Positions 44,132 to 61,754 of a stretch of 64,000 bases of DNA are shown in pieces. A program made the translations under genes and the position numbers. The notes below the pieces were generated by a model. The model was not told where the DNA came from, did not search any database, and saw only the letters and a list, made by a program, of their open reading frames with translations. Each line of letters begins with the position of its first letter. The first letter of the stretch is position 1. This DNA is from a virus. Its lineage: Duplodnaviria > Heunggongvirae > Uroviricota > Caudoviricetes. Where the stretch lies: the IMG/VR virus record IMGVR_UViG_2529292828_000009. One strand, given 5' to 3'.

Positions 44132-44167
44132 ATGGTGCGAAGGTGCGAAGGTGCGAAGGCCGGACTC
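44132..44167 (-). repeat. Degenerate att-type direct repeat (tRNA 3'-end-like) with three tandem GGTGCGAA octamers
   Basis: TGGTGCGAAGGTGCGAAGGTGCGAAGGCCGGACTCG; last part matches the repeat at 55785..55808. Confidence 0.5.
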
Positions 44168-44519
44168 GCATATTCATTTAAATTGTTGTAAAAAATGGAT
44201 TTTATTAATAATTAATTCAATTATGCCCCCTTTTGTGCCCCCTCCATTCGCTGTTCACATTTTGATTTTTGTTGATTATTTATCCAAAAATTATCGAAGA
44301 AATAGTCAATCCAGTTAGGTTCCGTTAAACGGATCCAAACCGGGACTTGACTCAACAAAAAATACTTTTTTTTCGCAAAACCATGCACACTATTCACTCT
44401 GCAACTTTTAATTTATATATCAATTGGTTATGTATTAACAGTTAGGTGAAGAGTGAACTGCTATCTCTACATTCGTACGTTTCCAATAAGAAACCCGGCA
44501 TCAGCCGGGTTAGTTGTAA

Positions 44520-46844
44520 TTATTTGATTGTTAGCTCATCACACTTGGGAAGCCAGTCTGCATTACTTTCCTCTTTTAAAGTGAGGTTAGTCTGCATTCC
44601 CTGATTAGTTCGCCGCTTCTCATAATTTAGCCCGTATTCCTTCAGCATAACTGGTAGCCCTTTGCCAAACATTGTCAGGCTAAGGGTATTTTTAAAGCCA
44701 TTAGCCTCCATGTATACGAGATAGGCATGGTAAAGGTACGTACGTGGCTGGCGCGGGACAATATTGGCGTTCCCCATAAACATGCCGTTGGTGTCAGGTA
44801 ATGCCTCAAGGTAGCCACAAAAATCAAATGCTGGATCAGCATCACGCTTGATGGTGAGAGCCTCATCAGAATTCTGCTGCGACTGAAGCAATGTTCTGGC
44901 GCTCATCGGATCGCTGAAACGCTGCATGAGCTGACGAACAATCACAGCCAGTTCTCGTGCAATTTTATCTTTCAACTGCGGATCGCGTTCTTCCGGTGCT
45001 ATCTGCTCAGGAAAATGCAGAATAACTCTCCTGCGGGACACACCACCACTGCGATCAGTGAAGCGCATAGGATTATTATTTACGGCCAAGATAACCGCCG
45101 GAATATGTGTTGAATAAGCATTCTGATATTTGGGGTCCACAGATACTGCATCGCCACCAGTTATAGCCTTAAGCCCGGCGCCGTCGCCGCTCCACTTCTC
45201 CTGATCAGGCAGGCGAATAAGAGAAAAACCTATCAGAGCCGCACGTTCTCGCGGGGACTCCAGCGTTTCAATGGTCGCAGAGGTGGCGTTATCCTCTCCA
45301 GCAAGCATGGTCGCAATTTCAGCCAGAATACTTTTGCCACTTCCACCAGGGCCAGTCACTTCCAGAAAGAGCTGCCAGTCATAACGGTTCGCCAGCACCA
45401 TAAATAACGCTGCAAGAATAATGTCGCGTTTTGCTGGCTTGTGTCCGGCGGCCCGGTCCAACCAACGCCAGAATGCCGGGGCATGAGTTTCAAGCGTTTC
45501 CCCCTTTACCGGTGGCGTGAAATCGACTTCACACAGGGTACGCAGCCAGTTCTCTTTACAGTGCGGACTAAAAAGCCCTGTTCGCGTATCGAGAACGCCA
45601 TTACGAAAACCAATCAGATGACGTGACGGATTTTGCTGCTGCGGAACAATTAACTTTAATGTTTCCACCAGTGAGGCAATTTTTCCTGAGGAAAACGGTG
45701 CCCCGAGGCGCTGGAAAAGGGCTGCGACATCTCGGGCAAAATCTGACTGAGAAATAACTTTCCACGCTCCAGACTCGTAGCGGGATAAAAGCTGCCCGTT
45801 CGGATCAACCGCCAGTGCATCCCTGTAATGCTCCCGAACCCTCTGAGCTTTTTCGCTGACACTCATCGCTGTGAATTCTGCTTCACTCATTGTGTCGAAA
45901 GGACTGGCGTTATGTGGCTTCAAAGCCTCAAGAATTGCCTTCCGGGTGGATTCCTCTCCGTATTGGGTAAGCGCATCATTCCAGTCACCAAAAACCGGTG
46001 GCAGCACAATGTCACACTGACTCGCTTTTGCAGCAGTTTCAGCCCTGTTCTGGCCTGAACCATTCAGATCGCGGTCCGCTGCAATAATTAACTGATATCC
46101 AGGATACTTATTATGGGCAACGCTGCTCAGAGAAAGAAAGTTGACCGACGAAAATGCCACCATGACGGCTTCTCCTGTCAAATAATGAATGGTAAGCGCC
46201 GTGGCGTAACCTTCCGTAATCCAAATCCTTCTTACAGAACTCCCGCCCCCTTCTATCAGATGATAGGCCTCCTTAACCTGACCTCCTTTAAGAAAACACT
46301 TGCTACCATTGCTACTGATAAGCTGAATATTCACCAGCTCCCCGTCAGCGTTATAGAGTGGGACGATCAAATCACCGGGGCGGAACATCACACCACCGGC
46401 CTTATGAGCTGAAGTCAGCTCATGGCAAATATGCTCCGGGAAACCTTTATGTGTAAGATAAGTGTTTCCGGCAGATTCACGCGAGGCTTGCAGCAGTCGC
46501 GCGGCAAGTGCTGCCGCTGCATCTTTCCCGCTATCGGTATCGGCGGTTAACGTCCTGACCTCGGAATTAACTATAGACAGATCATGTGTCAGTCCATGTA
46601 TCCTGTCAGCTGCTTCACTGATATCCACATTCAGTGCCCTGGTGACAAGCGCTAAACCATCCCCGGCTCCGCACTGATTGCAGAACCATGTTCCGCGTCC
46701 TTCCTGATCGTCGAAGCGAAAACGATCTTTACCGCCACAGACCGGGCAAGGCTGATGGCGATTTTTCAATATATTCACGCCCAGCGCTGGCAGAATCTGA
46801 GCCCAGTGACCGCGGGCAGCCTTCACGGCCTGACTGACTTTCAT
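44520..46844 (-). CDS. P4 alpha-like primase-helicase (start at internal Met)
   Basis: Zinc-binding CPVCGGKD...CNQCG N-terminus, central primase region, C-terminal Walker A GPGGSGKS. Confidence 0.85.
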   Translation of the reverse strand: MKVSQAVKAARGHWAQILPALGVNILKNRHQPCPVCGGKDRFRFDDQEGRGTWFCNQCGAGDGLALVTRALNVDISEAADRIHGLTHDLSIVNSEVRTLTADTDSGKDAAAALAARLLQASRESAGNTYLTHKGFPEHICHELTSAHKAGGVMFRPGDLIVPLYNADGELVNIQLISSNGSKCFLKGGQVKEAYHLIEGGGSSVRRIWITEGYATALTIHYLTGEAVMVAFSSVNFLSLSSVAHNKYPGYQLIIAADRDLNGSGQNRAETAAKASQCDIVLPPVFGDWNDALTQYGEESTRKAILEALKPHNASPFDTMSEAEFTAMSVSEKAQRVREHYRDALAVDPNGQLLSRYESGAWKVISQSDFARDVAALFQRLGAPFSSGKIASLVETLKLIVPQQQNPSRHLIGFRNGVLDTRTGLFSPHCKENWLRTLCEVDFTPPVKGETLETHAPAFWRWLDRAAGHKPAKRDIILAALFMVLANRYDWQLFLEVTGPGGSGKSILAEIATMLAGEDNATSATIETLESPRERAALIGFSLIRLPDQEKWSGDGAGLKAITGGDAVSVDPKYQNAYSTHIPAVILAVNNNPMRFTDRSGGVSRRRVILHFPEQIAPEERDPQLKDKIARELAVIVRQLMQRFSDPMSARTLLQSQQNSDEALTIKRDADPAFDFCGYLEALPDTNGMFMGNANIVPRQPRTYLYHAYLVYMEANGFKNTLSLTMFGKGLPVMLKEYGLNYEKRRTNQGMQTNLTLKEESNADWLPKCDELTIK

Positions 46845-46867
46845 TCCTGACATGACGCAGTTCTCCC

Positions 46868-47191
46868 TCAGTGTAAAACCGGCTTTTTGATGTGACGGAC
46901 GCATAACTCATCCATTACGGCTATTCCGAGCTGGGAGAGTGCGGGACAGGACATTAGAGGGCCGTATTCCATCAGGTCTGAAAGCAGGGCGCAGGCGATT
47001 TCCATGCCTTTTGTTTGCCCGTGCTGTCGCAGATAAAATCCTTCAAGCTCACGGGCAATAGCGGTTTCAATTTCATCCAGAGTGAGCTGCAGATGGCGGT
47101 TTTGCTGATAGCAGGCACTCAACCAGGCGCAGGCTACCGCGCGGCGATACAACGCTACCCGAAGTGAAAGGGAAAGAGTGCGTGATTTCAT
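46868..47191 (-). CDS. Hypothetical protein of the P4-like left operon
   Basis: 107 aa ORF directly upstream of alpha. Confidence 0.4.
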
Positions 47192-47599: not shown

Positions 47600-47870
47600 C
47601 CATAAGGGCAACCTCCAATAAGTAGCGGTAAATGCCACCACCGGAGTTCCTACGCTCATGGGTGGTGACCCGAACGGGGGTAGGAATACCGGCCTTATTG
47701 GAAACCGGCCAGCCCGAAGGCTGCCCCGCCCGGACCACCATTATCTGAAAGGGGCTAAGGTATAAGCACCGCAGCCCGAAAAATGGGTGTGCCTGAGCAA
47801 CGACGTAAAAAAAGACGCACGGCGCGTCTGGTGTCGCCAATAAGTAACTCGGGTTCCTACGCCCGGCAGC
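47600..47870 (-). ncRNA. Candidate P4-type CI-like immunity RNA region
   Basis: Two direct copies of CCAATAAGTA...GGNGTTCCTACGC (~47615-47655, ~47837-47862) flank a complementary segment GGGGGTAGGAATACCGGCCTTATTGG (~47676-47702); hairpin + T-run on minus strand at ~47796-47828. Confidence 0.4.
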
Positions 47871-47956
47871 CGATTTTGCGGCAGCGGGAAAACTATACCT
47901 GGAAAAGATATCAGGACGCAAGCCAGAAAAAAGGAGATGAGACTGCAAAGCAAGTT

Positions 47957-48217
47957 TCACGCATGGCCTCCTTGCTCGCGGGCAGCAATTCGCGCCGCCA
48001 TCCATGCACTGACCTCCGACTGTACCCAGGCCACATTTTTTCCACCCAGGGATATCTGCTGCGGGAAGGCATCGCGGCTGATAAGGTCGTAGATGGTTGA
48101 ACGGGATAGCCCGCAAAGGTGCATCACTTCAGGTAATCGTATGAAGCGCTCCTGCTGAGCCGGAACCGGGAGCACCGGAGCAGCTGGTGCCGGGGTGGAA
48201 ACGGAAATACTATTCAT
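47957..48217 (-). CDS. AlpA-family transcriptional regulator
   Basis: 86 aa; [23 protein letters not shown] typical of AlpA. Confidence 0.8.
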
Positions 48218-48860
48218 CTGGCTACCTCTCTAATATGTTTACAACAGTCCGGGCAATTCCATGCGGATTCAGGTAGCTCCTTATTATGTTTATATAAGCG
48301 GCTCGCGCATGCTTTATTTATTTTGTGTGAAATGTTGATTTCTCAAAAAATAAAACAGCTAAAAACCGTATGAAACGAACAAAAACAAACAATTCCTTTA
48401 TGGAATATAATAAGGAGCATCAATAATAAAAAAGTCTATTACACTAGGCAGGATCACAGCTCAAATCTGAACCAGCCCATATCATTCAGGGCTTTACATC
48501 ATAAGCACTAAGACAACACCTGATTAATAAAAGAGCCAAAAACGGCCAAAAATAAACAGCTCACCATATGTATCAATAAATCCGATGATTAAAGAAATTA
48601 AATTACCATCTTACTTCCGCATGTATCCGAATGTGTTTAATGAACATCAGACAAATTCATTTTTATGAATATTTTCCTGAAATGCAACTGAGTGCAGGGA
48701 GGTTGAATGTTCAATTATTAAACAGATATAAGACATCTTTTATTCTTTACATAGAATATGTATTGAATACTGGTGAATATTGGTGAGGAGAAAAGATCCA
48801 GTAATAAACTGAAATAAATATCGCGACTTATATGAAAAAGAAATATATGTTTAATTTTAT

Positions 48861-48970
48861 CTCTGTGAACAGTCATGAACAGTAGATGATCACTTTAATT
48901 AAAACACTACACCACTTAACCACATGTATTTACTATATTTTTATTGAAGTGAACAGTAGTGAATAGTATG
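48861..48970. repeat. Cluster of GTGAACAG-like octamer repeats (candidate alpha-binding iterons)
   Basis: gtgaacag / atgaacag / gtgaacag / gtgaatag within ~110 bp of AT-rich intergenic DNA. Confidence 0.35.
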
Positions 48971-49122
48971 TATTAAAGGAAGCGTGTAGATCAGACATGA
49001 CACCTTTCTCTGGCTAGCCAGAACAAGGTCATTGTTCAGTCACTGACACAATCCTCCTCGGTAGTGCGCTTGTATGGACCCCGGCACAATTGACACAACA
49101 ACAAAACACTACCGGAGCAGCC

Positions 49123-49875
49123 ATGACAACTGTTAACCAGATCTCTGATGCAAACATTACCCCCACCCTCCCGCCGAAAATTCGCGAAGCGGTGGAAAAA
49201 GTTAAGGCAGCAAAAGCTGTCTGGCAGGAAGAACGGCGAAAACAAACCGAAGCTGCTGCAATGACTGAAACTATCCGTAAACGTCAGGAAGATACAAAAA
49301 CGGAGACGCAGGCGCTTAATGATGAATGGCGAAACCTGTTTCGTGAGAATCAGGGGAATATGACGCCACGAATGAAAAAACTGCGGGCAGAAATCGCCCT
49401 CGGACGCGAAACACTAGATGAGTTCGAAGATTTGCTGGCTGCTCAGGCTGCAGAAAATGAATTCCTGCCATGGAAAACTGCGGATGCTGCAAACCGCTAC
49501 ATCAGCGAACATAATCACCTGATTGAAACTCATGCAGTGTGGCTCTGGAATGAGTTTATGAAGGAACACGGCCAGAAACTTATTCAGATCCTTGGACTGC
49601 TGAAAATGACTCTGGGCCGAAGCGCATCTTCTGTTATCGGTGTAGTTCATACCGTAAACGACCCCGAAAGTGTGCTGAAGCAATTTATCAGCGAGCAACT
49701 CACCACTCCGGCACTGTTCTGTAACGTATCTTCAACGGATGATATTGCCCTGCCGGGGATCAGCATTTATGCGGACGATAAAGCCATACAGGATGCCAGA
49801 CAATCACCCAGCCCTGCAGCACGTTCCCGGATGCTTAAACAGCGTGACATGGCTAAAGGGGGCGAGAAGGAATGA
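49123..49875 (+). CDS. Sid-like capsid size-determination protein (putative)
   Basis: Coiled-coil-rich ORF directly upstream of psu; GGAG RBS before internal ATG. Confidence 0.5.
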   Translation: MTTVNQISDANITPTLPPKIREAVEKVKAAKAVWQEERRKQTEAAAMTETIRKRQEDTKTETQALNDEWRNLFRENQGNMTPRMKKLRAEIALGRETLDEFEDLLAAQAAENEFLPWKTADAANRYISEHNHLIETHAVWLWNEFMKEHGQKLIQILGLLKMTLGRSASSVIGVVHTVNDPESVLKQFISEQLTTPALFCNVSSTDDIALPGISIYADDKAIQDARQSPSPAARSRMLKQRDMAKGGEKE

Positions 49876-50426
49876 ATACCGGAACCATTACTCAGGAAGC
49901 TCTCAACGATTACCGCGCGGCAATAAAAAGCTGGCTGACACTACGTAATGTGCAAAGTACCAGCCAGCTTCGTCTGGCTGCTTTGCTGGATACTGAAGAA
50001 AAACCCGCAGCATATGCCAGCCAACTTGAGGATCTTCGTGAGCGTCTTGCACTCCTCGAATGGCAGATTAACTGTGCCGCCCGGGATGGTCTTTATGCTC
50101 ACCAGATTGTGCTGGAAAGCTGTGTTACAAGCGCAACTGAAAACTTCATGAGCGAGCATGGTGATGCACTCACTGACGCTCTGGCTCCTTTTCTTTGTGC
50201 ACCATACGGGCTTGAGGCGGCAATGAAAATATTACGAACCGCTGTAGCCCGACAAACGGAAGTCCGTACTCCGGTAATTTCAGCAGCATATAAGAGCATT
50301 ATCGACGAAACCGGATTAACGGTGGATGCATCAATGCGCGCTGATGCTTCAGCCAGTTTCACCCCGGCACAACATAAAGTTTTCCTGGCCCGCCTTAACC
50401 GACTTAATGAAAAAGGAGTGTGCTGA
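49872..50426 (+). CDS. psu: Polarity suppression protein Psu
   Basis: 184 aa; segments resemble P4 Psu as recalled (FTPAQ..., HGxAL..ALAP). Confidence 0.75.
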   Translation: MNTGTITQEALNDYRAAIKSWLTLRNVQSTSQLRLAALLDTEEKPAAYASQLEDLRERLALLEWQINCAARDGLYAHQIVLESCVTSATENFMSEHGDALTDALAPFLCAPYGLEAAMKILRTAVARQTEVRTPVISAAYKSIIDETGLTVDASMRADASASFTPAQHKVFLARLNRLNEKGVC

Positions 50427-50427
50427 T

Positions 50428-50700
50428 ATGGCCCTGAAGTGTCCTGAATGTGGCGCGGTCGCTCACGCCAGAACCAGCGCCTATGAAGCTCCGTCGGTTA
50501 AACGCTCATGGTATCAGTGCCAGAATCTGGAATGTTCCTGCACATTTACCGCACTGGAAAGCGTGGATACGATAATTATGAAGCCTCGGTGCAATGAACA
50601 GGAATCAGACAAAGCAAAAATACCGGAAAAACAACAGCAAACTCTCAATCGCTATGGCTCCGCGTCAAAGCTGTCAAACCGTCAGCAAATTCCTGTCTGA
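50428..50700 (+). CDS. Ogr/Delta-family zinc-finger late transcription activator
   Basis: CPECGAVAHARTS...YQCQNLECSCTF pattern as in P2 Ogr. Confidence 0.8.
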   Translation: MALKCPECGAVAHARTSAYEAPSVKRSWYQCQNLECSCTFTALESVDTIIMKPRCNEQESDKAKIPEKQQQTLNRYGSASKLSNRQQIPV

Positions 50701-50830: not shown

Positions 50831-51306
50831 GACGCGAAAGCCCTTGTGTGGTGGCTTCTGAGACGATTTACGGGGTGCATGAAAACCAGTCTGTTAAGCG
50901 AAGCTGGCAGGCGGGCGGGGCTGCTCGCGCTAAGGGAGAAAATAGCAAACTCAGCCGCGCAGGCGGTGACAATGATTGACGAGATACTGGCTGGCAGTTG
51001 CTGAAATCTCCGCAATGATTCAAGAACTGCAGTGTATCGATGCAGCACACGTAAACTGAGCGGCGCTACGGGTAATATTTATAGATTTGTCATCCTTAGT
51101 GAGCATGGTTCTCACTCTTGTAACCTCTACCTGTACAAGATATCGTAAGACCTCAGATCAAACATGCACGTGTATTAAAGGTGGGCAAGCGTGGCGGGAA
51201 GATAATTGTGCGCACTGTAGTCAAAGATAGGGATTGTGATTACTTTTTCTTCCAGCCGTGGTGTAGTAAATTATTGGGAACAAACTCTTAATGACATCAA
51301 TGGATA

Positions 51307-52605
51307 ATGATTATGACTACAAATCCGGACGGATACATCTCATTTTTAAAACCCGGTAGTAACGACTGGAAAGCATTAGATAGTAAATCGTTTATTTATT
51401 GGCGAGACTACATAACGAATGAAAGTTTAGAAGAGTCAGGAGATTCTATTTCTCCAGCACAATCTCTTACTGATGGTGAAAAGAAGGAGTTGAAAGACAA
51501 TCAGGCATATATAAACGAACTATTACTAAAATCATTACAATTCCCAAATCTTGCATTCTTCGCTGGGAGTGGTACTTCGCTTGGGGACGTTGGAGGACCA
51601 AGCATGTGGGATCTCTGGAAGTGTGCAATGTGGAGTGAATCTTCTATAAACGAGGATGGTCAATTAAAACCTGATGCTCAAATTGTTTGTGATAAAGTAA
51701 AATATAAAGAGCGAGAGTATCCTAACATAGAACACTTTCTTTCTAATTGTGAAGCATATTTAGCATTTCATGATGATGAAGAAGTGTTGAATTTTTTAAA
51801 TAAAGTTAAAACAATTATTTTAGACAAATGTCGCTCATTTATTGATGATGGCAACTGTGATCTTTCAGCTTACATCAATTTATTACAAAAAATGGGGAGG
51901 AGGAGAGTCAGAGATCCTAGACTAAAAGTTTTCACAACTAACTATGATTTAGCCTTTGAAACAGCTGCTTCTGAATTAGGAATGATGGTAGTTGATGGTC
52001 TTTCATATACAGGAGTTCGCAGATTCGATGGTAAATATTTTAACTACGATGTTGTTAAAAGAGATGAAAACGAGCATGAGTTTGTAGAGGGCGTATTCCA
52101 GTTATTTAAACTCCACGGTTCTGTAAGTTGGATAAGAAAGGATGGGCAAATATATGAATCCAGCCAACCAACAGCAACAAACGCATGTCTAATATATCCA
52201 GCGAAAGGTAAATATCAGCAAGCCTTTATTCAACCTCACTTAGAATTACTTTCAAGATTGTTAGATTTCTTGAGAAAAAGAAATAACTGTTTAGTTATAT
52301 CTGGATTTGGTTTCAATGATGACCATCTTTCTGAACCAATTTACTCAGCAATAAAATCCAATCCAAGCATGAGGTTGATTATAGTAGATTTCAAATGTGC
52401 AACTCATATTCGGAATAAAGGGGGGGACGGTTCTAGTAAATATTGGGATTTACTAAAACAACTCTCACTATCAGGTTATGACATTCACTTCATAAATGCA
52501 TCTTTCAGTGATTTTGTTAAATTAGTTCCCAATCTTAAAGCATTAACCCCAGCAGAACAGTTGGCTAAGGTAATAAAACAAGTAGGAGTTAACAATCAAT
52601 TATGA
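51307..52605 (+). CDS. SIR2-like NADase domain protein (candidate anti-phage effector)
   Basis: Motifs FFAGSGTS...GPSMW, TTNYD and KLHGS resemble SIR2-family NAD-binding/catalytic motifs. Confidence 0.75.
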   Translation: MIMTTNPDGYISFLKPGSNDWKALDSKSFIYWRDYITNESLEESGDSISPAQSLTDGEKKELKDNQAYINELLLKSLQFPNLAFFAGSGTSLGDVGGPSMWDLWKCAMWSESSINEDGQLKPDAQIVCDKVKYKEREYPNIEHFLSNCEAYLAFHDDEEVLNFLNKVKTIILDKCRSFIDDGNCDLSAYINLLQKMGRRRVRDPRLKVFTTNYDLAFETAASELGMMVVDGLSYTGVRRFDGKYFNYDVVKRDENEHEFVEGVFQLFKLHGSVSWIRKDGQIYESSQPTATNACLIYPAKGKYQQAFIQPHLELLSRLLDFLRKRNNCLVISGFGFNDDHLSEPIYSAIKSNPSMRLIIVDFKCATHIRNKGGDGSSKYWDLLKQLSLSGYDIHFINASFSDFVKLVPNLKALTPAEQLAKVIKQVGVNNQL

Positions 52606-54323
52606 TTAATACAACACTACAGCTTGGTATTTTGAGGGGCGACCTTAAGGTTGGAGTAGTCTCATCAATTTTTGCTCAAACAGTTAGAGCAAATTTAATC
52701 TATGCAGGGGAACTCAGCGGAACATATATAGAAGGTTGTAGATATGGAAAAGGAGAAGTTGGTGAAATATTATTAATAGAAGGACAACAATCTATTGTTC
52801 TTGGCCGTTTAATAGAGGTTAAATTACCAGAGCGAGATAGAGGTGAAATATCTGTCGGGTCTCAAGGAAACTTCAAAGTTGATGCTATCGGCATTATACA
52901 ACTTCTTGGAACTATTGATCCTTCAAATTTTAGAATTGATTCAGGAATCAAATCATATCCTCGATTAGGAGATCGAGTTTATTCTGCTCCCTTAGATTTT
53001 ATTTCTTTAATACCAGAATTAATTAATAAAGGAATTAAAGATAACGAGGAAGAAAGAATAGGTATTGTATTAGGCATTATATCTGGAGGGGCAACAAGTA
53101 TAGTAACTGTTGAACCTGATAAACTCTTCGGTCGTCATTGTGCTATCTTAGGAGCTACAGGCGGTGGAAAAAGTTGGACAACTTCCAAGTTAATTGAAGA
53201 GTGTTCGAATTACGAAAACTCTAAAACTATAATAATTGATGCAACCAGTGAGTATAGATCGTTTAAATCTGATTATTGTTTACATTACCATTTAGGTGCC
53301 CCAATAAATAAAAACATAAATTCTTTAGAATTTAGAATTCCACCTACCGACTTTGTTGAGTCAGACTTTATTGCCATGTTCGATCCTTCTGGAAAAGTAC
53401 AGGGTCCTAAGCTAAAAGAAGCGATAAAAAGCCTTAGATTAGTAGCTTTAGAACCTAGAATAGCAACCGATGGTATTTTAAAAAAAATCAATCAACCTAA
53501 AACAGATTATCGACGCGCAATGAATACTGGAGACAACTCTAAACTTGTTGATAATCCATCACAACCATTTGATATAACAAAACTTATAAAACAGATTGTA
53601 CAAGAATGTTGTTACGATAATGGAGATAATACTTGGGGAAACGCTGCAACTCAAGACTTAAGCTATTGCTCATCTTTGTTAACCAGAATTCAAGCAGTAA
53701 CGTATGCCAACTCGTTAAGGTCTGTTTTTAATAGTAACGAGGATATATCCACACTAGGTGAAATATTAGAAACTTTTTTACAATCTGATAAACGAGTCCT
53801 AAGGTTATGCCTAAGTGATGTTAGCTATGAGTTTTATGCTAGAGAAATTTTAGCCAATGTAATCGGCAGAAAACTTTTAACTTTAGCTAGGCTTGAAAAA
53901 TTCAGAACAAGACCGCTGTTAGTTATTGTTGATGAAGCCCATAACTTCCTTGGCAAACGGGTTGGTTCTGAAGATCATGCAATTAAACTTGACGCTTTTG
54001 AGATGATTGCAAAAGAAGGCAGGAAATATGGCCTTAATATATGCTTAACAACTCAAAGACCCAGAGATATCACTGAAGGTGTGCTTAGTCAAATTGGAAC
54101 CTTATTGGTTCATCGCTTAACAAACGACCGAGATCGAGAAGTCGTTGAGCGTGCATGCGGTGAAATTGATAAATCTGCAGCATCTTTTCTACCAAGTCTC
54201 AAACAAGGTGAAGTTGCTCTTGTAGGGGTTGACTTCCCTATTCCTATGACCATCCAGATAGATAAGCCAATATATCCACCAGAATCTGATTCTCCAGGCT
54301 ATTGCAATATATGGAAAAAATAA
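52602..54323 (+). CDS. HerA/FtsK-like ATPase (partner of SIR2-like protein)
   Basis: Walker A GATGGGKS, Walker B LLVIVDEAHNF; start overlaps upstream stop (ATGA). Confidence 0.75.
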   Translation: MINTTLQLGILRGDLKVGVVSSIFAQTVRANLIYAGELSGTYIEGCRYGKGEVGEILLIEGQQSIVLGRLIEVKLPERDRGEISVGSQGNFKVDAIGIIQLLGTIDPSNFRIDSGIKSYPRLGDRVYSAPLDFISLIPELINKGIKDNEEERIGIVLGIISGGATSIVTVEPDKLFGRHCAILGATGGGKSWTTSKLIEECSNYENSKTIIIDATSEYRSFKSDYCLHYHLGAPINKNINSLEFRIPPTDFVESDFIAMFDPSGKVQGPKLKEAIKSLRLVALEPRIATDGILKKINQPKTDYRRAMNTGDNSKLVDNPSQPFDITKLIKQIVQECCYDNGDNTWGNAATQDLSYCSSLLTRIQAVTYANSLRSVFNSNEDISTLGEILETFLQSDKRVLRLCLSDVSYEFYAREILANVIGRKLLTLARLEKFRTRPLLVIVDEAHNFLGKRVGSEDHAIKLDAFEMIAKEGRKYGLNICLTTQRPRDITEGVLSQIGTLLVHRLTNDRDREVVERACGEIDKSAASFLPSLKQGEVALVGVDFPIPMTIQIDKPIYPPESDSPGYCNIWKK

Positions 54324-54326
54324 TTA

Positions 54327-54346
54327 GTAGGGTCTTTGACCCTACT
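54327..54346. terminator. Bidirectional hairpin terminator between convergent HerA-like gene and int
   Basis: GTAGGGTC-TTTG-GACCCTAC with T-rich flanks on both strands. Confidence 0.45.
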
Positions 54347-54361
54347 TTAAAATTTTTAAAG

Positions 54362-55633
54362 CTAGATAGTTTTTTTTGCAAAGTCGTAGGGGGTTATATA
54401 TTCCTGAGTGTTAGCATCAAGATAATCGGCCCACCACTGAACCATTAAACGACGCTCATCCAAATGCTCTGAAGTATGAATATAAGCAGCCCTAACGCTA
54501 TTACGCTCAGAGTGGCTTAGCTGACGTTCTATCGCGTCATCACTCCACAACCCTGATTCGCCCAAAGCACCGCGCGCCATAGTTCTGAATCCATGCCCGC
54601 AAACTTCGGTTTTTGTGTCATACCCCATTGTGCGCAAAGCACTGTTAACCGTGTTTTCACTCATAACTTTAGTTGCGTCATGATCTCCCGGAAACAGTAG
54701 CTCTTTATCACCACTAATCTGCTTAAGCTGCTCTAACAAAATCATCGCCTGCCGACTAAGCGGAACGATATGCTCCTCTTTCATCTTCATCCCACGGTAC
54801 GAGTAACGGACACCTTTAATTTCTTCTCGTTTTGCCGGTATACGCCAAAGAGATTTATCGAAGTCGAATTCATCCCAGCGAGCGAAACGCAACTCACTGG
54901 AACGCACAAAAGTTAGTAAGGAAAGCTCGACTGCAATCCGTGTCATTAAACGGCCACGATATGCAGCAAGACGTGCAAGAAACTCAGGGAAACGGTTAGA
55001 GGGTAAAGCTGGATAGTGTCGTGCTTTGGTTGTCGATAAAGCACCAGCCATATCACTGGCTGGGTTTGAGTCGATATAATCGTTCTGTACGGCATAACGC
55101 ATAATAGCTGTAACACGCTGCTGAAGACGCTGCGCGACGTCATGCTTACCACTGGCATCAACTTTTTTAATCGGGGCTAACAGGTGGCTTGTTTTAAGCT
55201 GGCGGATATCGGACGATCCGATATGAGGGAAGATATAAAGCTCAAGATAGCGAAGAACGCGCGCTCTATGGTCTTCACTCCAGCGCTTGTTACTGGCATG
55301 CCATTCACGAGCGATCGTTTCGAAAGTATATGCCCCCGATTTCTCGGCCTGAGCCGCTTTCTGCTCGGCTTTTGGATCAATACCCTGCACTAATAATCTT
55401 TTAGCTTCATCACGTTTTGCCCTTGCCTGGGCAAGTGTCACAGTAGGCCAAACGCCAAAAGCGAGGCGATCCTCTTTTTTGTCTGAAGGGCGTCTGTATT
55501 TCATACGCCAGTATTTAGATCCCTTGGCCGAAACCTCAAGATACAAACCGCCACCATCGGCCATTTTGTAGGTTTTGTCTTTTGGCTTTGCGGTCTCGAC
55601 CAGTCTGGCGTTGAGCTTCATTTGGGGGCACAT
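54362..55633 (-). CDS. P4-type tyrosine integrase
   Basis: 423 aa; C-terminal R...H..R...Y catalytic pattern; adjacent to att repeat. Confidence 0.9.
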   Translation of the reverse strand: MCPQMKLNARLVETAKPKDKTYKMADGGGLYLEVSAKGSKYWRMKYRRPSDKKEDRLAFGVWPTVTLAQARAKRDEAKRLLVQGIDPKAEQKAAQAEKSGAYTFETIAREWHASNKRWSEDHRARVLRYLELYIFPHIGSSDIRQLKTSHLLAPIKKVDASGKHDVAQRLQQRVTAIMRYAVQNDYIDSNPASDMAGALSTTKARHYPALPSNRFPEFLARLAAYRGRLMTRIAVELSLLTFVRSSELRFARWDEFDFDKSLWRIPAKREEIKGVRYSYRGMKMKEEHIVPLSRQAMILLEQLKQISGDKELLFPGDHDATKVMSENTVNSALRTMGYDTKTEVCGHGFRTMARGALGESGLWSDDAIERQLSHSERNSVRAAYIHTSEHLDERRLMVQWWADYLDANTQEYITPYDFAKKTI

Positions 55634-55784
55634 TTCTAATCGAAGTCAAGATGCCCCTAATTATGCCCCCAATGGCATCCGGATTTCAACGGACAATCTC
55701 GGACGACTCCGGACATAAGAATCACTGTACTCATTGAATTATAAGGAACAATTGGACTTTCTCGGATGATCTTGGAAGTGCTAA

Positions 55785-55808
55785 TGGTGCCGAAGGCCGG
55801 ACTCGAAC
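55785..55808 (-). repeat. att repeat: 24-nt copy of a tRNA 3' end (tRNA-Leu-like), not an intact tRNA
   Basis: TGGTGCCGAAGGCCGGACTCGAAC is the reverse complement of ...GTTCGAGTCCGGCCTTCGGCACCA; sequence beyond it does not continue as a tRNA. Confidence 0.7.
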
Positions 55809-56155
55809 ATCGCAACTATCCTTATGATCTTTAGTAATTAAAGCAATCTACATTGTCGATGATACCATCATTGATACCATCAGACCCGATTGATGATAAT
55901 CGAACAGTAATAAAATATGACTAAACAATTTATGCTTCAACATAAGATTGAATGCTTTGATCTACCATTTTAATGCAGTGGAAAAATTTTTAACACAATA
56001 CTTAAGAAAAATAATTTCATATAAAAACTACATTTCATTTCATATAGTTAACACACCAAAAACAACTGTATATAAACCCAGTAAAAAATGGTAGAATCAC
56101 TATTGTGTTCAATTGTTGAACATTTATAATACATTTGTCGGATAGGGGGGTGTTT

Positions 56156-56743
56156 ATGCAAAGGAACACATACAACAAAGTAGGTCTATACATCCTATCT
56201 TTAGCTATGCTTTTTGTTTTTATTATTATCCTGACTGCCAAAATCCCCTTTTGCTTCACTTCGGATTGTAGCTTCATAGGTTTGAAGAGACTTGTATTAA
56301 CAAATATTGTTCCTATTGTTTGCTTTGTATTTTTTCTATTTAGTATTTATTTTTATAATAGATTAAAAAACATAACAAAATACAATGGACAAGATAGCGT
56401 TAAAATAACATCATGTCAAAGCGAAAGCTATGAAAGTTTAACATTCTTAGCAACATACATTGTACCTTTTATGGGGTTTAGTTTTGAAGACATGCAAAAG
56501 AATATAGCATATCTTTTGCTTGTAGTAGTAATAGGCATTATTTTTATTAAAACAGACAAGTATTATGCGAATCCAACTTTAGCTCTGTTTGGCTTTAAAC
56601 TATACAGGGTAAATATACTACACCCAGGAAGTGGAGAAACAAAAAATCTGATAGCTATTTCAAATGATGTATTAAAAGTGGACGATAATGTTTATTATAG
56701 TTTCTTTGATGAATTTGTTTTTATAGCAAGGAAAAAAATATGA
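56156..56743 (+). CDS. Four-TM membrane protein, KwaA-like (putative Kiwa component)
   Basis: Four hydrophobic helices; GGGGGG RBS before ATG; ATGA overlap with downstream gene. Confidence 0.45.
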   Translation: MQRNTYNKVGLYILSLAMLFVFIIILTAKIPFCFTSDCSFIGLKRLVLTNIVPIVCFVFFLFSIYFYNRLKNITKYNGQDSVKITSCQSESYESLTFLATYIVPFMGFSFEDMQKNIAYLLLVVVIGIIFIKTDKYYANPTLALFGFKLYRVNILHPGSGETKNLIAISNDVLKVDDNVYYSFFDEFVFIARKKI

Positions 56744-57687
56744 CTACTCAGCAGTTAAAAGAAAAAATTTCAAAAATAATTGATAACTTTAGCGGAATCA
56801 GGGTTGTATTTACTACTACTGCTAATGAACTAAAGCTTTCCAGAATTGAAGGGAGTGCATTAAATAGCATAGCTGAAGGGTTTATTGACAAAATCAAAGA
56901 AGACATTATAAATAATGAAGATCTCACCTCACCATTGCTGTCCAATTTTGATGATAGAAAAAATGCCTTGTTTAAATTTGATTACGAACAATATCCTGAA
57001 GAATTTAACAAAATCACTCAGGCCATCGCTATCCCTCCTAACTCACAAGATTATTATAACCCTTTAAATAAATTCACAGATGTGAAAGGAATTATAATTT
57101 TAATAAGTGGAGATAACAAATGCCTGGCTCTTTATAAAAACAAAACTAACCTTGCAGTATTGAGAAATAGCAGAAAAATGTTTAATTTAGTCCCTGACCC
57201 TGATGGATACTTGAAACAACTCCCTAATGAGATATTACGGTTAGATTTCAATTATGATCTATTATCAATTGGTGAGGATTTTTACATTAAAAATCACAAG
57301 ACTCTTGAAACTCAAATGAAATTTCATCAAGTGATTGAAGCCCAGGCAGTTATTGCTTTAAATTCTTTACGGGATTCACTACTAATTGAAGACATATCAG
57401 GTTTAGAAAAGAGTTCGAGAGAAATTTCATTCGCTAGAAAGTTGGCAAAAATCTCCAAACATTCTCCTGTTTTGGGGAAAATAGATACTAAAACAATTAT
57501 CGATTATGTATCCCAACATAAATATTTATCTGCAATACTTCAGATTAATGAAGCAGGAAATAAGTTATTAATTAAAACCAAGACATCACAGAAGCATTTC
57601 ATTAAACTCATGAGCGATGATTATTTACAATCAGATCTAACTAAAATAATATACATGAGCATAGCAAAAGACAGATTAGATGAATAG
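56740..57687 (+). CDS. Soluble ~315 aa protein, KwaB-like (putative Kiwa component)
   Basis: Size and operon architecture match Kiwa; no motif verified. Confidence 0.4.
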   Translation: MTTQQLKEKISKIIDNFSGIRVVFTTTANELKLSRIEGSALNSIAEGFIDKIKEDIINNEDLTSPLLSNFDDRKNALFKFDYEQYPEEFNKITQAIAIPPNSQDYYNPLNKFTDVKGIIILISGDNKCLALYKNKTNLAVLRNSRKMFNLVPDPDGYLKQLPNEILRLDFNYDLLSIGEDFYIKNHKTLETQMKFHQVIEAQAVIALNSLRDSLLIEDISGLEKSSREISFARKLAKISKHSPVLGKIDTKTIIDYVSQHKYLSAILQINEAGNKLLIKTKTSQKHFIKLMSDDYLQSDLTKIIYMSIAKDRLDE

Positions 57688-57751: not shown

Positions 57752-58423
57752 TCATTCGCGTGCTTGATTATTTATGCTGGATGTTCTAATTGTTGCCGAA
57801 TGCCAATACCCACCACTATATGTTCTTGCTATAGTAATAAATCCAGTACAGGTAATTACTGTCATTAAAATCAGGAAAATATAATAGAAATTAAGCGGAG
57901 CTTTCAAATCAAAAGGAGGTAACGAATACACCAGCAACCCTATCCATACAATAGTTATAAATAAACTAATAATTTGGTTTATCTTAGATACTGATATTGG
58001 AGATGGACCAGTAAGTAAATGAACCGAAAACTCTTTTATTCCTTTCGGTTTTGCACGAGATAACACCACTTTATATAGTGGACCATTAATATTATCTTCT
58101 AACATATCGACATGTTTTTCCCAGTTTCCCTGCCAATATTTACTACCACGGTTAACACAGAGCCAACCGAATGAAAATACAATTCCCAGTGAACACAGTA
58201 ATACGGATAAATCTGTCTTAGCTGTAGAAGAGGAAGTCTGTATAGCAACAAAACCAGCTAAAGTTGCCGCTATAAAAGTCCAGAAATAAGTTGCTCTTTT
58301 CCAGTAATGGTCTATCTCATATTTCCGTATATCTAAAGCCTGTAGCAGAGCATTCTTATTACAGTCTCTATCATTAAGAAAACGGCTACGATATTCCTCA
58401 TCTGAAAATGGAGTAATTGGCAT
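57752..58423 (-). CDS. Four-TM membrane protein co-oriented downstream of the RM fusion gene
   Basis: 223 aa; four hydrophobic helices. Confidence 0.55.
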   Translation of the reverse strand: MPITPFSDEEYRSRFLNDRDCNKNALLQALDIRKYEIDHYWKRATYFWTFIAATLAGFVAIQTSSSTAKTDLSVLLCSLGIVFSFGWLCVNRGSKYWQGNWEKHVDMLEDNINGPLYKVVLSRAKPKGIKEFSVHLLTGPSPISVSKINQIISLFITIVWIGLLVYSLPPFDLKAPLNFYYIFLILMTVITCTGFITIARTYSGGYWHSATIRTSSINNQARE

Positions 58424-58475
58424 ATTGATTTACCTCTATTTATAATAGTAAAAGAGGGGTCCCCCCCCCTCTTTT

Positions 58476-61400: not shown

Positions 61401-61754
61401 ATTAATATCATTATCTTTTTTTAATTTCTCTCTATGCTTAAACTCTATTACTAAAGATCCAATACGACTATCGATACGCCCCTTACTGTTGCTTCTGCCG
61501 GTCGTGTTGTATTTAATACCATCAATAAAAATTTCTTTTTCGGGACGGTAATCAATACCAATGAAATCTTTAATGAAAGGAATAAAAGCAAGGTCGAAAC
61601 CAGAAACAACTTCTGCTTCATTTTTGGCTAAATATGAGGACTCATTAATTTTTTTAGATATAATATCAGCAGCTAAAAGAAAATCTGAGTCAGTAACAAT
61701 CTTTTCTTGAGCTTTGAACTTAATTTTTTTTTGAATTTCTTCTAACACAGCCAT
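58476..61754 (-). CDS. Type IIG-like restriction-modification fusion enzyme (N-terminal PD-(D/E)xK-like nuclease + N6-adenine methyltransferase)
   Basis: EFYTPEWLAEHL, motif I DPCCGSGTFI, motif IV GNPPWIDW; N-terminal D...EFK; ~470 aa C-terminal region as target-recognition domain. Confidence 0.7.
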   Translation of the reverse strand: MAVLEEIQKKIKFKAQEKIVTDSDFLLAADIISKKINESSYLAKNEAEVVSGFDLAFIPFIKDFIGIDYRPEKEIFIDGIKYNTTGRSNSKGRIDSRIGSLVIEFKHREKLKKDNDINKAVLQIQAYLDSLKLEGNQRYVGVLTDGINYLIRDTDGILTSKLQPLDKNAIKKICGLLVLLNKKALHPKNIVDDFCYGSPSLTTQLIGNLLSALENNMTGRSQMLFNEWKELFRLAHDDKSQQTAILERKLSLEDIAGHRLLTNDDEYKVLYALQTAYAIIVKIIAYKTLSGLVFENDYNFSDMINSNSESMRNYLYTLEEGAIFRKYGILNLLEGDFFSWYCTKEQWGDDIFISIKNIFSLLSEYEEGNLFKEGEKVYDLFKDLYMNIIPDKVRHSLGEFYTPEWLAEHLISSAEEHVVNKNNWTAIDPCCGSGTFIITLIGKVLSRTHTDSKAKLKDVITSVKGIDLNPLAALTARINYFINISHLLDEGSEVEIPIYLGDASYVPEKVIIDGIDCLRYEINTLQGSIYIEMPTQALSDSHKFSKAIVDIERYIKLRDRDSVFAKLIEVSGDISSSPSIYEKLKTLSDKFVELEERDWNGIWARIVTNFLTTANLGKFNMVVGNPPWIDWKNLPAGYRERIKGLCLSRSLFSGDRLTGGINLNICALISNVSAENWLEKDGILAFLMPQNILFQQTYEGFREFNFGDNQKLYLQEVYDWSESGHPFKPVTIKFATYLFSSKNVDYLKGIPLTFLTKNKTGRSLDSYSQHTHFNAISHEFSIRKEIAGTVSVSNTAFTYASDSEKLNDYRNISGYCEYHGREGIEFFPQELFLWKFKTKKANNTAIFENYQGGKSKYKVAKQMIFAETKHIYPLIKGTNIEPFGVKDVEFFVPFPYRELSRKPIPVDELVKESPMLADYFINNKQLLESQTRYNDKIIGKSNITAFYALARVGEYTYGDHFVCFRDNTKWAAAVVSQMDTPWGDKKRPLFQNHAVSISQRQDGKFITLDEAHYICAIFNSSITGEYILKSSDSRTFKIRPPINVPLYDEGNKKHRELSELSKKAHEAKANRSSFESFLRDIDGIVKVLFKNN

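What the first reader, a model, noticed from the sequence alone, without database searches (positions are those of the whole stretch)
51307..54323. SIR2-like NADase + HerA-like ATPase pair in the hotspot of a P4-like satellite
Two translationally coupled genes (ATGA overlap), visibly more AT-rich than the satellite backbone, sit between psu/delta and the integrase, where P4-like satellites are known to carry variable anti-phage cargo. Gene 1 has SIR2-type motifs (FFAGSGTS...GPSMW, TTNYD, KLHGS); gene 2 has HerA/FtsK-type Walker A (GATGGGKS) and Walker B (LLVIVDEAH). This is the described SIR2-HerA defence architecture, so the family is not new, but this allele and its satellite carriage are the top defence candidate in the window.
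Basis: partly seen in the sequence, partly recalled or inferred. Interest (0 to 1): 0.8.

Follow-up and report, generated by a model that had tools for sequence, protein, structure and literature searches.

The report
SIR2–HerA phage defence on P4-like satellite

Summary
The observation and the interpretation both hold. Two overlapping genes (ATGA at 52602-52605) encode a SIR2-family protein (430-432 aa) and a HerA-type ATPase (573 aa).

- **Profile and fold matches.** Both proteins match the PADLOC SIR2-HerA models over their full length (7e-82 and 1.7e-166). Their AlphaFold models best match subunits of the solved SIR2-HerA complexes from E. coli, S. aureus and Paenibacillus.
- **Catalytic residues.** SIR2 N212 and H270, and HerA K190 and D444/E445, are invariant in 50+ homologues.
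- **Host element.** The genes lie in an 11.64-kb P4-like satellite with alpha primase, CI RNA, sid-psu-delta, a cos-like site and a P4-type int/attP. An empty-site comparison shows the satellite is a discrete insertion at a leuX-derived att site.
- **Hotspot.** The psu-delta and int flanks occur in about 1,300 of 5,426 complete E. coli genomes, but this cargo occurs in only 22. A 98%-identical backbone carries DRT3 instead.
- **Prior publication.** Rousset et al. 2022 already list "SIR2 + HerA" among the known systems in this hotspot. The exact proteins are in RefSeq.
- **What is left.** This subclade is only 19-24% identical to any solved complex, scores far below the NCBIfam equivalog cutoffs, and has a conserved N-terminal SIR2 extension. 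I found no experiment on it.

The most likely function is HerA-activated NAD+ depletion causing abortive infection; this is inferred from homologues. Interest is low.

The parts
44139..44168 (.). Left copy of the duplicated att core (…GGTGCGAAGGCCGGACTCG), marking the left end of the satellite insertion
   Evidence: The empty-site alignment with strain BA22372 has a 30-nt overlap matching both 44139-44168 and 55775-55804. The direct repeat was also found.
44520..46904 (-). P4 alpha-type primase-helicase (satellite replication)
   Evidence: Pfam Zn_Ribbon_Prim, Toprim_3, D5_N, DUF5906 and Pox_D5. RefSeq annotation in strain D6 agrees.
46868..47191 (-). DUF5375 protein, equivalent to P4 ORF106
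   Evidence: Pfam DUF5375 at 2.4e-48. P4 ORF106 carries the same annotation.
47658..47745 (-). C4 antisense RNA (P4 CI immunity RNA family)
   Evidence: Rfam RF01695, 83.4 bits against a gathering score of 45.
47808..47885 (-). isrK-family sRNA
   Evidence: Rfam RF01394, 72.1 bits against a gathering score of 50.
47957..48217 (-). AlpA-type HTH regulator/excisionase (P4 ORF88 equivalent)
   Evidence: Pfam Phage_AlpA at 4e-20.
49090..49875 (+). sid-like capsid size determination protein
   Evidence: Pfam Psu family at 4.8e-8. RefSeq calls it 'phage capsid assembly protein'.
49872..50426 (+). psu (polarity suppression protein)
   Evidence: Pfam Psu at 2.7e-35.
50428..50700 (+). delta (Ogr/Delta zinc-finger late activator)
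   Evidence: Pfam Ogr_Delta at 1.3e-16 on the overlapping ORF. Coordinates were transferred from the RefSeq CDS in strain D6.
50876..50945 (+). cos-like site A. Homology with other E. coli P4-like backbones ends at about 50,925-50,960.
   Evidence: It is the best match to a P4 cos-junction probe in the whole 64-kb window: score 21, against 16 for the best site elsewhere in the window and a median of 9.
51175..51214 (+). cos-like site B, inside the cargo-linked leader
   Evidence: It is the best match in the window to the cos of the MB06102 satellite. The 361-nt leader 50946-51306 occurs only in the 22 genomes that carry this cargo.
51307..52605 (+). SIR2-family NADase-type effector. The likely true start is 51313. 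Putative catalytic residues are N212 and H270; the NAD-binding GSG is at 87-89.
   Evidence: PADLOC SIR2 PDLC04075 at 7e-82, full-length. Pfam SIR2_2 at 3.4e-11. PDB sequence hits to the SIR2 subunits of SIR2-HerA complexes. Catalytic residues invariant in 53 sequences. The AF2 model best matches 8suw, 8uae, 8su9 and 8j4u.
52602..54323 (+). HerA-type ASCE ATPase with an N-terminal beta-barrel. Walker A K190; Walker B D444/E445.
   Evidence: PADLOC HerA PDLC04103 at 1.7e-166, full-length. Pfam DUF87 and HerA_C. PDB hits. Motifs invariant in 51 sequences. The AF2 model best matches 8wld, 8wiv, 8sub and 8j4u.
54326..54346 (.). Terminator-like hairpin between the convergent HerA and int genes
   Evidence: 9-bp stem AGTAGGGTC/GACCCTACT with T-runs. 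The sequence is shown.
54362..55633 (-). P4-type tyrosine integrase
   Evidence: Pfam Arm-DNA-bind_3, Phage_int_M and Phage_integrase. 88.5% nucleotide identity to P4 int plus attP.
55775..55804 (.). Right copy of the att core. It is the 3' end of tRNA-Leu leuX, but the tRNA body is absent here.
   Evidence: No tRNA was found anywhere in the window.

Best explanation
The two genes form a SIR2-HerA (Gao_Her_SIR / 'Nezha') anti-phage module. It is carried as accessory cargo in the cos-proximal hotspot of an integrated, P4-sized (11.64 kb) P4-like satellite.

The mechanism below is inferred by analogy with characterised homologues.
1. The HerA ATPase forms a hexamer through its N-terminal beta-barrel and RecA-like core.
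2. That hexamer docks onto a ring of SIR2 subunits (12-14 of them).
3. SIR2 alone is auto-inhibited. Assembly with HerA, together with an unidentified signal from infection, opens the SIR2 active site (N212/H270).
4. SIR2 then hydrolyses NAD+ to ADP-ribose and nicotinamide.
5. The infected cell is starved of NAD+ and phage replication aborts. ATPase, helicase and nuclease activities of the complex may contribute.

For the satellite, the module protects its host, and so itself, from competing phages.

**Shown here:** gene structure, domain and fold identity, conservation of catalytic residues, conserved two-gene synteny across Proteobacteria, satellite identity and boundaries, and hotspot behaviour.

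**Inferred:** complex assembly, NADase activity, abortive infection and the trigger.
For: - **Profile matches.** Full-length hits to the dedicated PADLOC SIR2 and HerA models, 7e-82 and 1.7e-166. Pfam SIR2_2, DUF87 and HerA_C are above their gathering scores. The top NCBIfam hits are SIR2_antiphage and HerA_antiphage.
- **Sequence hits to solved structures.** The SIR2 sequence hits in the PDB are all SIR2 subunits of SIR2-HerA complexes (8j4u/8su9, 8yhx, 8w9l). TTNYD and KLHGS align to the residues mutated in S. aureus (N226/H287) and Paenibacillus (N163/D165/H212).
- **Conservation.** N212, D214, H270, GSG 87-89, K190, D444 and E445 are invariant across homologues of 54-91% identity.
- **Fold.** AF2 models have pLDDT 75 and 81. 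The SIR2 model ranks SIR2-HerA complex subunits first (E about 4e-18, TM about 0.6), ahead of ThsA, DSR2 and Avs5 (E 1e-5 or worse). The HerA model ranks them first at E about 7e-34 and TM about 0.7.
- **Synteny.** SIR2 lies immediately upstream of HerA, with an overlap or a gap of at most a few nucleotides, in Klebsiella/Raoultella-type satellites, Pseudomonas and Cupriavidus.
- **Satellite and hotspot.**
- **Literature.** SIR2-HerA protects against phage and depletes NAD+, and catalytic mutants in either protein abolish defence (PMC11472057, PMC11514289, PMC11559045). SIR2 + HerA is listed among known systems in the P4 psu-int hotspot (PMC9122126).
Against: - No experiment exists for this allele or, as far as I could find, for its subclade. 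Neither accession number appears in the searchable paper library.
- Identity to every solved SIR2-HerA protein is only 19-24%.
- Scores are far below the NCBIfam equivalog cutoffs: 123 against 500 for SIR2, and 150 against 800 for HerA.
- The SIR2 has a roughly 55-residue N-terminal extension, and the HerA lacks the C-terminal arm domain of Paenibacillus HerA. Stoichiometry and activation details may therefore differ.
- No convincing promoter was found upstream. The promoter scan is at chance level.
- The AF2 SIR2 model has low-confidence loops at 231-261 and 298-311.
Confidence: 0.88

Rival explanations
1. The pair is a defence module, but NAD+ depletion is not the main killing activity. DNA cleavage or unwinding and ATP consumption by the SIR2-HerA complex would do most of the work.
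For: The Paenibacillus study reports four activities switched on by complex formation: NADase, nuclease, ATPase and helicase (PMC11472057). The HerA Walker motifs are invariant, so ATPase activity is under selection.
Against: Single SIR2 active-site mutations abolish immunity in V. cholerae (N168A, H227A). They also abolish NADase activity in S. aureus. Phages counter the V. cholerae SIR2-HerA system with NAD+-regenerating enzymes, which points to NAD+ loss as the decisive step.
Confidence: 0.15
2. The genes serve the satellite's own life cycle rather than defending against other phages. A HerA/FtsK-type translocase could act in DNA packaging, replication or helper exploitation.
For: HerA/FtsK-class ATPases include DNA translocases and packaging motors. 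tblastn finds weak similarity (24%) to a phage 'terminase large subunit' and to 'bipolar DNA helicase' genes. The genes sit next to cos.
Against: The same SIR2-to-HerA pair occurs outside satellites, in Pseudomonas and Cupriavidus islands. About 1,300 E. coli genomes have the same backbone flanks, yet only 22 carry this cargo, and a 98%-identical backbone carries DRT3 in its place. It is therefore dispensable for satellite function. The best profile and fold matches are defence HerAs paired with SIR2.
Confidence: 0.03
3. The module is a silent or decaying passenger that is no longer functional.
For: No clear sigma-70 promoter was found. It is rare, at 22 of 5,426 genomes. One genome carries it on a satellite that has lost sid-psu-delta. 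In this window the satellite sits at a tRNA remnant, not at an intact leuX.
Against: Both ORFs are intact and all catalytic residues are retained. The 22 copies are at least 99.7% identical and come from strains of diverse hosts and sources. The roughly 75 nt upstream of the start codon are conserved among alleles whose proteins are only 79-91% identical, which suggests a maintained expression signal.
Confidence: 0.05

Closest known systems
E. coli SIR2-HerA / 'Nezha' (PDB 8su9, 8sub, 8suw, 8uae, 8j4u)
   Same: It is a two-gene SIR2 plus HerA system from the same species and is the best structural match for the SIR2 model (E 4e-18, TM about 0.6-0.66). The TTNYD and KLHGS catalytic motifs align residue for residue.
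   Different: Identity is only 22-24% for SIR2 and 18-20% for HerA. The SIR2 here has about 55 extra N-terminal residues, since query residue 76 aligns to chain residue 22. The HerA here is 573 aa against 610. The two match different PADLOC and NCBIfam sub-models.
Paenibacillus sp. 453MF SIR2-HerA (Gao et al. 2020 system; PDB 8w9l, 8wiv, 8wld; PMC11472057)
   Same: It gives the best sequence and fold match for HerA (phmmer 3.5e-31; Foldseek 7e-34, TM about 0.7). It has the same beta-barrel, RecA-like and helical-bundle plan. Its SIR2 catalytic residues N163/D165/H212 correspond to N212/D214/H270 here.
   Different: Paenibacillus HerA is 696 aa, with a C-terminal arm domain (residues 576-696) that the 573-aa protein here lacks. 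Identity is 22-24% for HerA and 16-20% for SIR2. It comes from a Gram-positive chromosome, not a satellite.
S. aureus Sir2-HerA (PDB 8yhx; PMC11514289) and V. cholerae classical-biotype Nezha (PMC11559045)
   Same: Both have the same architecture, and both have experimentally validated catalytic Asn/His pairs: N226/H287 in S. aureus and N168/H227 in V. cholerae. These align with N212/H270 here.
   Different: Sequences are distant, at 17-22% identity for S. aureus SIR2. The V. cholerae system is in a 25-kb chromosomal island, not a satellite.
P4-like satellite psu-int defence hotspot (Rousset et al. 2022, PMC9122126)
   Same: Same element type, same slot (cos-proximal, between psu/delta and int), and the same system class, which that paper names explicitly as 'SIR2 + HerA'. 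Hotspot behaviour was reproduced here.
   Different: Nothing differs in kind. I could not confirm that this exact allele is in their Table S1A, because the stored copy is truncated.
DUF4297-HerA (PDB 8zir, 8zit, 9c1m) and other SIR2 defence effectors (ThsA, DSR2, Avs5, SPARSA)
   Same: The HerA fold is shared with DUF4297-HerA (Foldseek E about 1e-28). The SIR2 NADase fold is shared with ThsA and DSR2.
   Different: The partner here is a SIR2 protein, not DUF4297. The SIR2 is a stand-alone 430-aa protein with no SLOG, NOD or pAgo partner. ThsA, DSR2 and Avs5 match far less well (E 1e-5 or worse) than the SIR2 subunits of SIR2-HerA complexes.

Membership tests
SIR2-HerA (Gao_Her_SIR / Nezha) defence system | A SIR2-family protein with a Rossmann NAD-binding glycine motif and the catalytic Asn...His pair | tested here: met
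   Pfam SIR2_2 at 43.8 bits against a cutoff of 24.5. GSG 87-89, N212 and H270 are present, invariant in 53 homologues, and aligned to the mutated catalytic residues of solved homologues.
SIR2-HerA (Gao_Her_SIR / Nezha) defence system | A HerA/FtsK-class ASCE ATPase with Walker A and B motifs and an N-terminal beta-barrel | tested here: met
   Pfam DUF87 at 69.3 bits and HerA_C at 25 bits, both above cutoff. K190 and D444/E445 are invariant. The AF2 model has beta-strands at 16-128 followed by a RecA-like core, and matches HerA chains full-length.
SIR2-HerA (Gao_Her_SIR / Nezha) defence system | The two genes are adjacent and co-oriented in one operon, and the pairing is conserved across taxa | tested here: met
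   ATGA overlap. SIR2_2 lies directly upstream of HerA in loci L002-L007 and L009, from Enterobacteria, Pseudomonas and Cupriavidus.
SIR2-HerA (Gao_Her_SIR / Nezha) defence system | Matches the dedicated detection models of a defence-system database | tested here: met
   PADLOC SIR2 PDLC04075 at 7e-82 (residues 55-430 against profile 26-413 of 414). PADLOC HerA PDLC04103 at 1.7e-166 (residues 15-573 against profile 14-576 of 579).
SIR2-HerA (Gao_Her_SIR / Nezha) defence system | Reaches the NCBIfam equivalog cutoffs (NF042942 SIR2_antiphage; NF042943/NF042944 HerA_antiphage) | tested here: not met
   SIR2 scores 123.3 bits against a cutoff of 500. HerA scores 149.6 against 800 and 123.4 against 850. 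These are still the top hits, but the pair belongs to a different subclade from the one those equivalogs describe.
SIR2-HerA (Gao_Her_SIR / Nezha) defence system | Predicted folds are closest to subunits of solved SIR2-HerA complexes | tested here: met
   Foldseek against the PDB. The top 38 hits for SIR2 are all SIR2-HerA entries. The top HerA hits are 8wld, 8wiv, 8sub and 8j4u.
SIR2-HerA (Gao_Her_SIR / Nezha) defence system | Assembly into a SIR2 12-14-mer : HerA hexamer supramolecular complex | not testable with these tools
   No multimer prediction or biochemistry is available. A C-terminal helix (415-429) is predicted. A C-terminal helix is what mediates dodecamer assembly of E. coli Sir2 (PMC11514289).
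SIR2-HerA (Gao_Her_SIR / Nezha) defence system | Phage protection with NAD+ depletion on infection, dependent on both catalytic sites | not testable with these tools
   This needs experiments. No publication on WP_001402808 or WP_001402807 was found.
P4-like phage satellite | Core gene set: alpha primase-helicase, sid, psu, delta, integrase, CI-type immunity RNA | tested here: met
   Pfam hits. Rfam C4 RNA at 83 bits. RefSeq annotation of the identical element in strain D6. The gene order parallels P4.
P4-like phage satellite | P4-type int/attP, integration at leuX, and a genome of about 11.6 kb flanked by att repeats | tested here: met
   88.5% nucleotide identity to P4 int plus the attP core and arm repeats. 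The identical element abuts tRNA-Leu in strain D6. The empty-site comparison gives an 11.64-kb insertion with a duplicated att core.
P4-like phage satellite | A cos packaging site related to P2/P4 cos | tested here: inconclusive
   The exact P4 19-mer is absent even allowing 3 mismatches. Two cos-like sites (50876-50945 and 51175-51214) are the best matches in the window to the P4 and MB06102 cos probes. Which one is functional, if either, is unknown.
P4 psu-int defence hotspot (Rousset et al. 2022) | Conserved flanks with variable cargo between cos and int across related elements | tested here: met
   The flanks match in about 1,300 of 5,426 genomes, and the cargo in 22 plus one copy at 79%. 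A 98%-identical psu-delta backbone carries IS1 plus DRT3.

The most novel reading that the evidence does not exclude
This Proteobacteria-wide subclade could assemble with HerA or sense infection differently from the four characterised systems. Three features mark it out:
- it is only 19-24% identical to every solved SIR2-HerA;
- it scores below the NCBIfam equivalog cutoffs;
- it has a conserved N-terminal SIR2 extension (near-invariant G9, P16, L24 and invariant W21) that is confidently predicted as a beta-hairpin plus helix.

A linked possibility concerns the cargo-associated second cos-like site. It may be a scar showing that whole 'cos-leader-defence-int' modules are swapped between satellites by recombination at cos.
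Probability: 0.15. Interest if true: 0.4.

Novelty: already known. Interest (0 to 1): 0.15.

Why it matters
Practically, the result adds a well-delimited, clonable example of a SIR2-HerA subclade that has not been studied biochemically. The clonable unit is 50946-54360, leader included. It sits on an element with clean boundaries and a natural empty site, which would suit comparative work on how divergent SIR2-HerA complexes assemble and what triggers them.

It also illustrates stacking of defence systems at leuX: the satellite-borne SIR2-HerA lies next to Kiwa and a type IIG restriction-modification enzyme.

It does not open a new question. The system class, its NAD+-depletion mechanism and its presence in P4 hotspots are all published.

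Tried and rejected
- **Exact allele in Rousset et al. tables.** I searched their supplementary tables for WP_001402808, WP_001402807 and for peptide strings. Nothing was found, but the stored files are truncated, so this is inconclusive.
- **Accessions in the paper library.** A full-text search found no papers. The first literature query failed because the term 'P4' is too short.
- **Exact P4 cos 19-mer.** A search allowing up to 3 mismatches gave no hit. A sensitive alignment replaced it.
- **Promoter scan.** The number of sigma-70-like sites was at or below the shuffle expectation, and none lay convincingly upstream of SIR2. No promoter is claimed.
- **tRNA scan.** No tRNA was found in the window. 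This led to the finding that the right att is a leuX remnant at the edge of a second island.
- **USMARC-49610 junction.** I considered whether the partial leader match there revealed a different backbone joined at cos-like site B. It is a deletion derivative lacking sid-psu-delta, so it does not discriminate between the two sites.
- **Other SIR2 effector families.** I considered ThsA, DSR2, Avs5 and SPARSA, and also DUF4297-HerA. They were rejected on domain architecture, gene partner and much weaker fold matches.
- **Scans not run.** I did not run the genome contigs or metagenome scans or the 1.84-billion-protein search. The family assignment was already unambiguous, so the cost was not justified.


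Full report
**Observation**

- The ORFs at 51307-52605 (432 aa) and 52602-54323 (573 aa) are both on the + strand. The HerA ATG overlaps the SIR2 TGA in the sequence ATGA.
In SIR2 these are FFAGSGTS 84-91, GPSMW 97-101, TTNYD 210-214 (N212) and KLHGS 268-272 (H270). In HerA they are Walker A GATGGGKS 184-191 (K190) and Walker B LLVIVDEAH 439-447 (D444/E445).
- The cargo is 35.5% GC, against 48.5% for the satellite backbone and 47.6% for int.
- The likely true SIR2 start is the ATG at 51313, giving 430 aa. RefSeq annotates it that way, and homologues begin M(A/P)T(N/T)PDGY.

**Identity of the two proteins**

- Pfam gives SIR2_2 (3.4e-11) for gene 1. For gene 2 it gives DUF87 'Helicase HerA central domain' (6.7e-19) plus HerA_C.
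- PADLOC's SIR2-HerA models match both proteins end to end: SIR2 PDLC04075 at 7e-82 and HerA PDLC04103 at 1.7e-166.
- The top NCBIfam hits are SIR2_antiphage and HerA_antiphage. The scores are far below the curated equivalog cutoffs (123 against 500, and 150 against 800). The pair therefore belongs to a different subclade from the curated one.
- By sequence, the only solved relatives of gene 1 are the SIR2 subunits of the SIR2-HerA complexes from E. coli (8j4u/8su9), S. aureus (8yhx) and Paenibacillus (8w9l). TTNYD and KLHGS align to their catalytic motifs.
- Those residues are the ones mutated in published work:
  - S. aureus N226/H287 (PMC11514289);
  - Paenibacillus N163/D165/H212 (PMC11472057);
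  - V. cholerae N168/H227 (PMC11559045).
- Gene 2 hits the HerA subunits of the same complexes and of the DUF4297-HerA complexes.
- Database searches found more than 1,600 SIR2 relatives and more than 3,100 HerA relatives. Homologues of 54-92% identity occur across Gamma- and Betaproteobacteria.
- In alignments of 53 and 51 sequences, all catalytic and nucleotide-binding residues are invariant.
- AlphaFold2 models (pLDDT 75 and 81) were searched against the PDB.
  - The top 38 hits for SIR2 are all SIR2-HerA entries, the best at E 4e-18 and TM 0.59-0.66. ThsA, DSR2 and Avs5 follow only at E 1e-5 or worse.
  - The HerA model matches SIR2-HerA HerA chains full-length, at E 7e-34 and TM about 0.7.
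- Identity to every solved protein is only 19-24%.

**Operon conservation**

SIR2_2 lies directly upstream of HerA in each of these settings:
- Klebsiella/Raoultella-type P4-like satellites (84% and 91% protein identity);
- a second E. coli satellite, in strain MB06102 (79% and 85.5%);
- a Pseudomonas fluorescens island next to a reverse transcriptase (61% and 62%);
- a Cupriavidus mobile island (58% and 60%).

The junctions overlap or have gaps of at most a few nucleotides. The pair is therefore a mobile two-gene unit and is not specific to satellites.

**The carrier**

- The surrounding genes are alpha primase-helicase, DUF5375 (P4 ORF106), an Icd-like protein, AlpA, sid-like, psu, delta and a tyrosine integrase.
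- Rfam finds the C4/CI immunity RNA and isrK.
- The int-att segment is 88.5% identical in nucleotides to P4 int plus the annotated attP core and arm repeats.
- The identical element in strain D6 abuts an intact tRNA-Leu, leuX.
- In this window only the 3' end of the tRNA is present and no tRNA is detected anywhere. An AT-rich island follows instead.
- Strain BA22372 has the same left flank and the same AT-rich island but no satellite. Aligning it to the window gives a clean insertion from 44169 to about 55804. That is about 11.64 kb, against 11,624 bp for P4, and it is bounded by a 30-nt duplicated att core.

**Hotspot behaviour**

- A query spanning psu to int matches about 1,300 of 5,426 complete E. 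coli genomes. The matches cover only the flanks: psu-delta up to about window 50,925-50,960, and int from about 54,410.
- The cargo itself occurs in 22 genomes at 99.7% identity or better, plus one diverged copy at 79%.
- A backbone 98% identical in psu-delta carries IS1 plus Drt3a/Drt3b and a different integrase, at tRNA-Thr.
- In P4 itself this slot holds gop-beta-cII, between cos and int.

**Literature**

- Rousset et al. 2022 describe exactly this hotspot and name 'SIR2 + HerA (Gao et al., 2020)' among the known systems found in it (PMC9122126).
- Their tables list 'SIR2_2 + DUF87' and 'hypothetical + DUF87' pairs. I could not confirm this allele's accession because the stored copy is truncated.
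- No paper in the library mentions WP_001402808 or WP_001402807.

**Mechanism (inferred by homology)**

- In the characterised systems, SIR2 alone is auto-inhibited.
- A HerA hexamer binds a SIR2 ring of 12-14 subunits, and this switches on NADase activity. Nuclease, ATPase and helicase activities are also reported.
- Infection then leads to NAD+ depletion and abortive infection.
- Catalytic mutations in either protein abolish defence, and some phages counter with NAD+-regenerating enzymes.
- Every sequence-level requirement for that mechanism is met here.
- Assembly, activity and the trigger are untested.

**Differences from the characterised systems**

- SIR2 has about 55 extra N-terminal residues. 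Query residue 76 aligns to residue 22 of E. coli SIR2.
- Within that extension, G9, P16 and L24 are nearly invariant and W21 is invariant in the subclade. The region is predicted at high confidence as a beta-hairpin plus helix.
- HerA lacks the C-terminal arm domain of Paenibacillus HerA.

**Side observations**

- Two cos-like sequences lie about 300 nt apart, between delta and SIR2. Site A (50876-50945) is the best match to P4 cos in the whole window. Site B (51175-51214) is the best match to the cos of the MB06102 satellite.
- The 361-nt leader containing site B occurs only together with this cargo.
- The roughly 75 nt before the start codon are conserved among three diverged alleles.
- One genome keeps SIR2-HerA-int on a satellite that has lost sid-psu-delta.
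- Immediately outside the satellite lie KwaA/KwaB, a RipA-family membrane protein and an Eco57I-like type IIG enzyme.

**Verdict**

The finding is real and correctly interpreted, and it is ordinary. It is a known defence system class in a known satellite hotspot, it is already in RefSeq, and it is covered by a PADLOC sub-model. What remains of interest is that this subclade is divergent and has not been experimentally characterised.

Noticed in passing
window 56135-57687 (+): A complete Kiwa defence system sits about 330 nt beyond the satellite's right att core. KwaA matches PADLOC at 9e-77 and KwaB at 1.7e-115. It is outside the P4-like element.
   Followed up: partly
window 57752-61754 (-): A 223-aa membrane protein, annotated 'RipA family octameric membrane protein' in strain BA22372, lies next to a 1,092-aa Eco57I-like type IIG restriction-methyltransferase (PADLOC 2.3e-156). 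Together with Kiwa and SIR2-HerA, that makes three defence systems within about 10 kb at leuX.
   Followed up: partly
window 55775-55810, compared with L001 16586-16670: The satellite's right att is only the 3' end of tRNA-Leu. The tRNA body is replaced by the Kiwa/type IIG island, and no tRNA is detected in the whole 64-kb window. The satellite therefore sits in a tandem island array. No complete E. coli genome in the collection has this exact combination; BA22372 has the island without the satellite.
   Followed up: yes
window 50876-50945 and 51175-51214: There are two cos-like sequences about 300 nt apart between delta and SIR2. The second lies in a 361-nt leader found only with this cargo. 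It may be a scar of module exchange by recombination at cos. Which site is functional is unknown.
   Followed up: partly
window 51307-51530 (SIR2 residues 1-75): The SIR2 has an N-terminal extension of about 55 residues that is absent from the characterised E. coli SIR2. Residues G9, P16 and L24 are nearly invariant and W21 is invariant in the subclade. AF2 predicts a beta-hairpin plus helix at pLDDT above 90. Residues 35-53 are an insertion specific to the enterobacterial alleles.
   Followed up: partly
window 51234-51306: The roughly 75 nt directly upstream of the SIR2 start are conserved among three alleles whose proteins are 79-91% identical. The block includes an invariant TGTGTAGTAAATT. 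It may be a promoter or 5' UTR that travels with the cargo.
   Followed up: partly
L012 (E. coli USMARC-49610), 6145-7186: This is a derivative of the same satellite that has lost sid, psu, delta and cos-like site A. It keeps alpha, SIR2-HerA, int and leuX. The element is presumably immobile but still carries the defence cargo.
   Followed up: partly
window 44125-44160: Three tandem copies of GGTGCGAA lie immediately before the left att core. The same repeat is present at the empty site in BA22372, so it predates the satellite insertion.
   Followed up: no
window 42717-43367 (-) and flank up to about 44100: An HNH endonuclease gene has weak PADLOC type IV restriction hits. Next to it, in related strains, is a truncated 'phosphorothioated DNA-binding restriction endonuclease' pseudogene. 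These are remnants of yet another defence-related locus on the left flank of the satellite.
   Followed up: no
window 48250-49000: A very AT-rich stretch (30-33% GC) lies between the AlpA-type gene and sid. This is the position where P4 has its annotated replication origin repeats.
   Followed up: no
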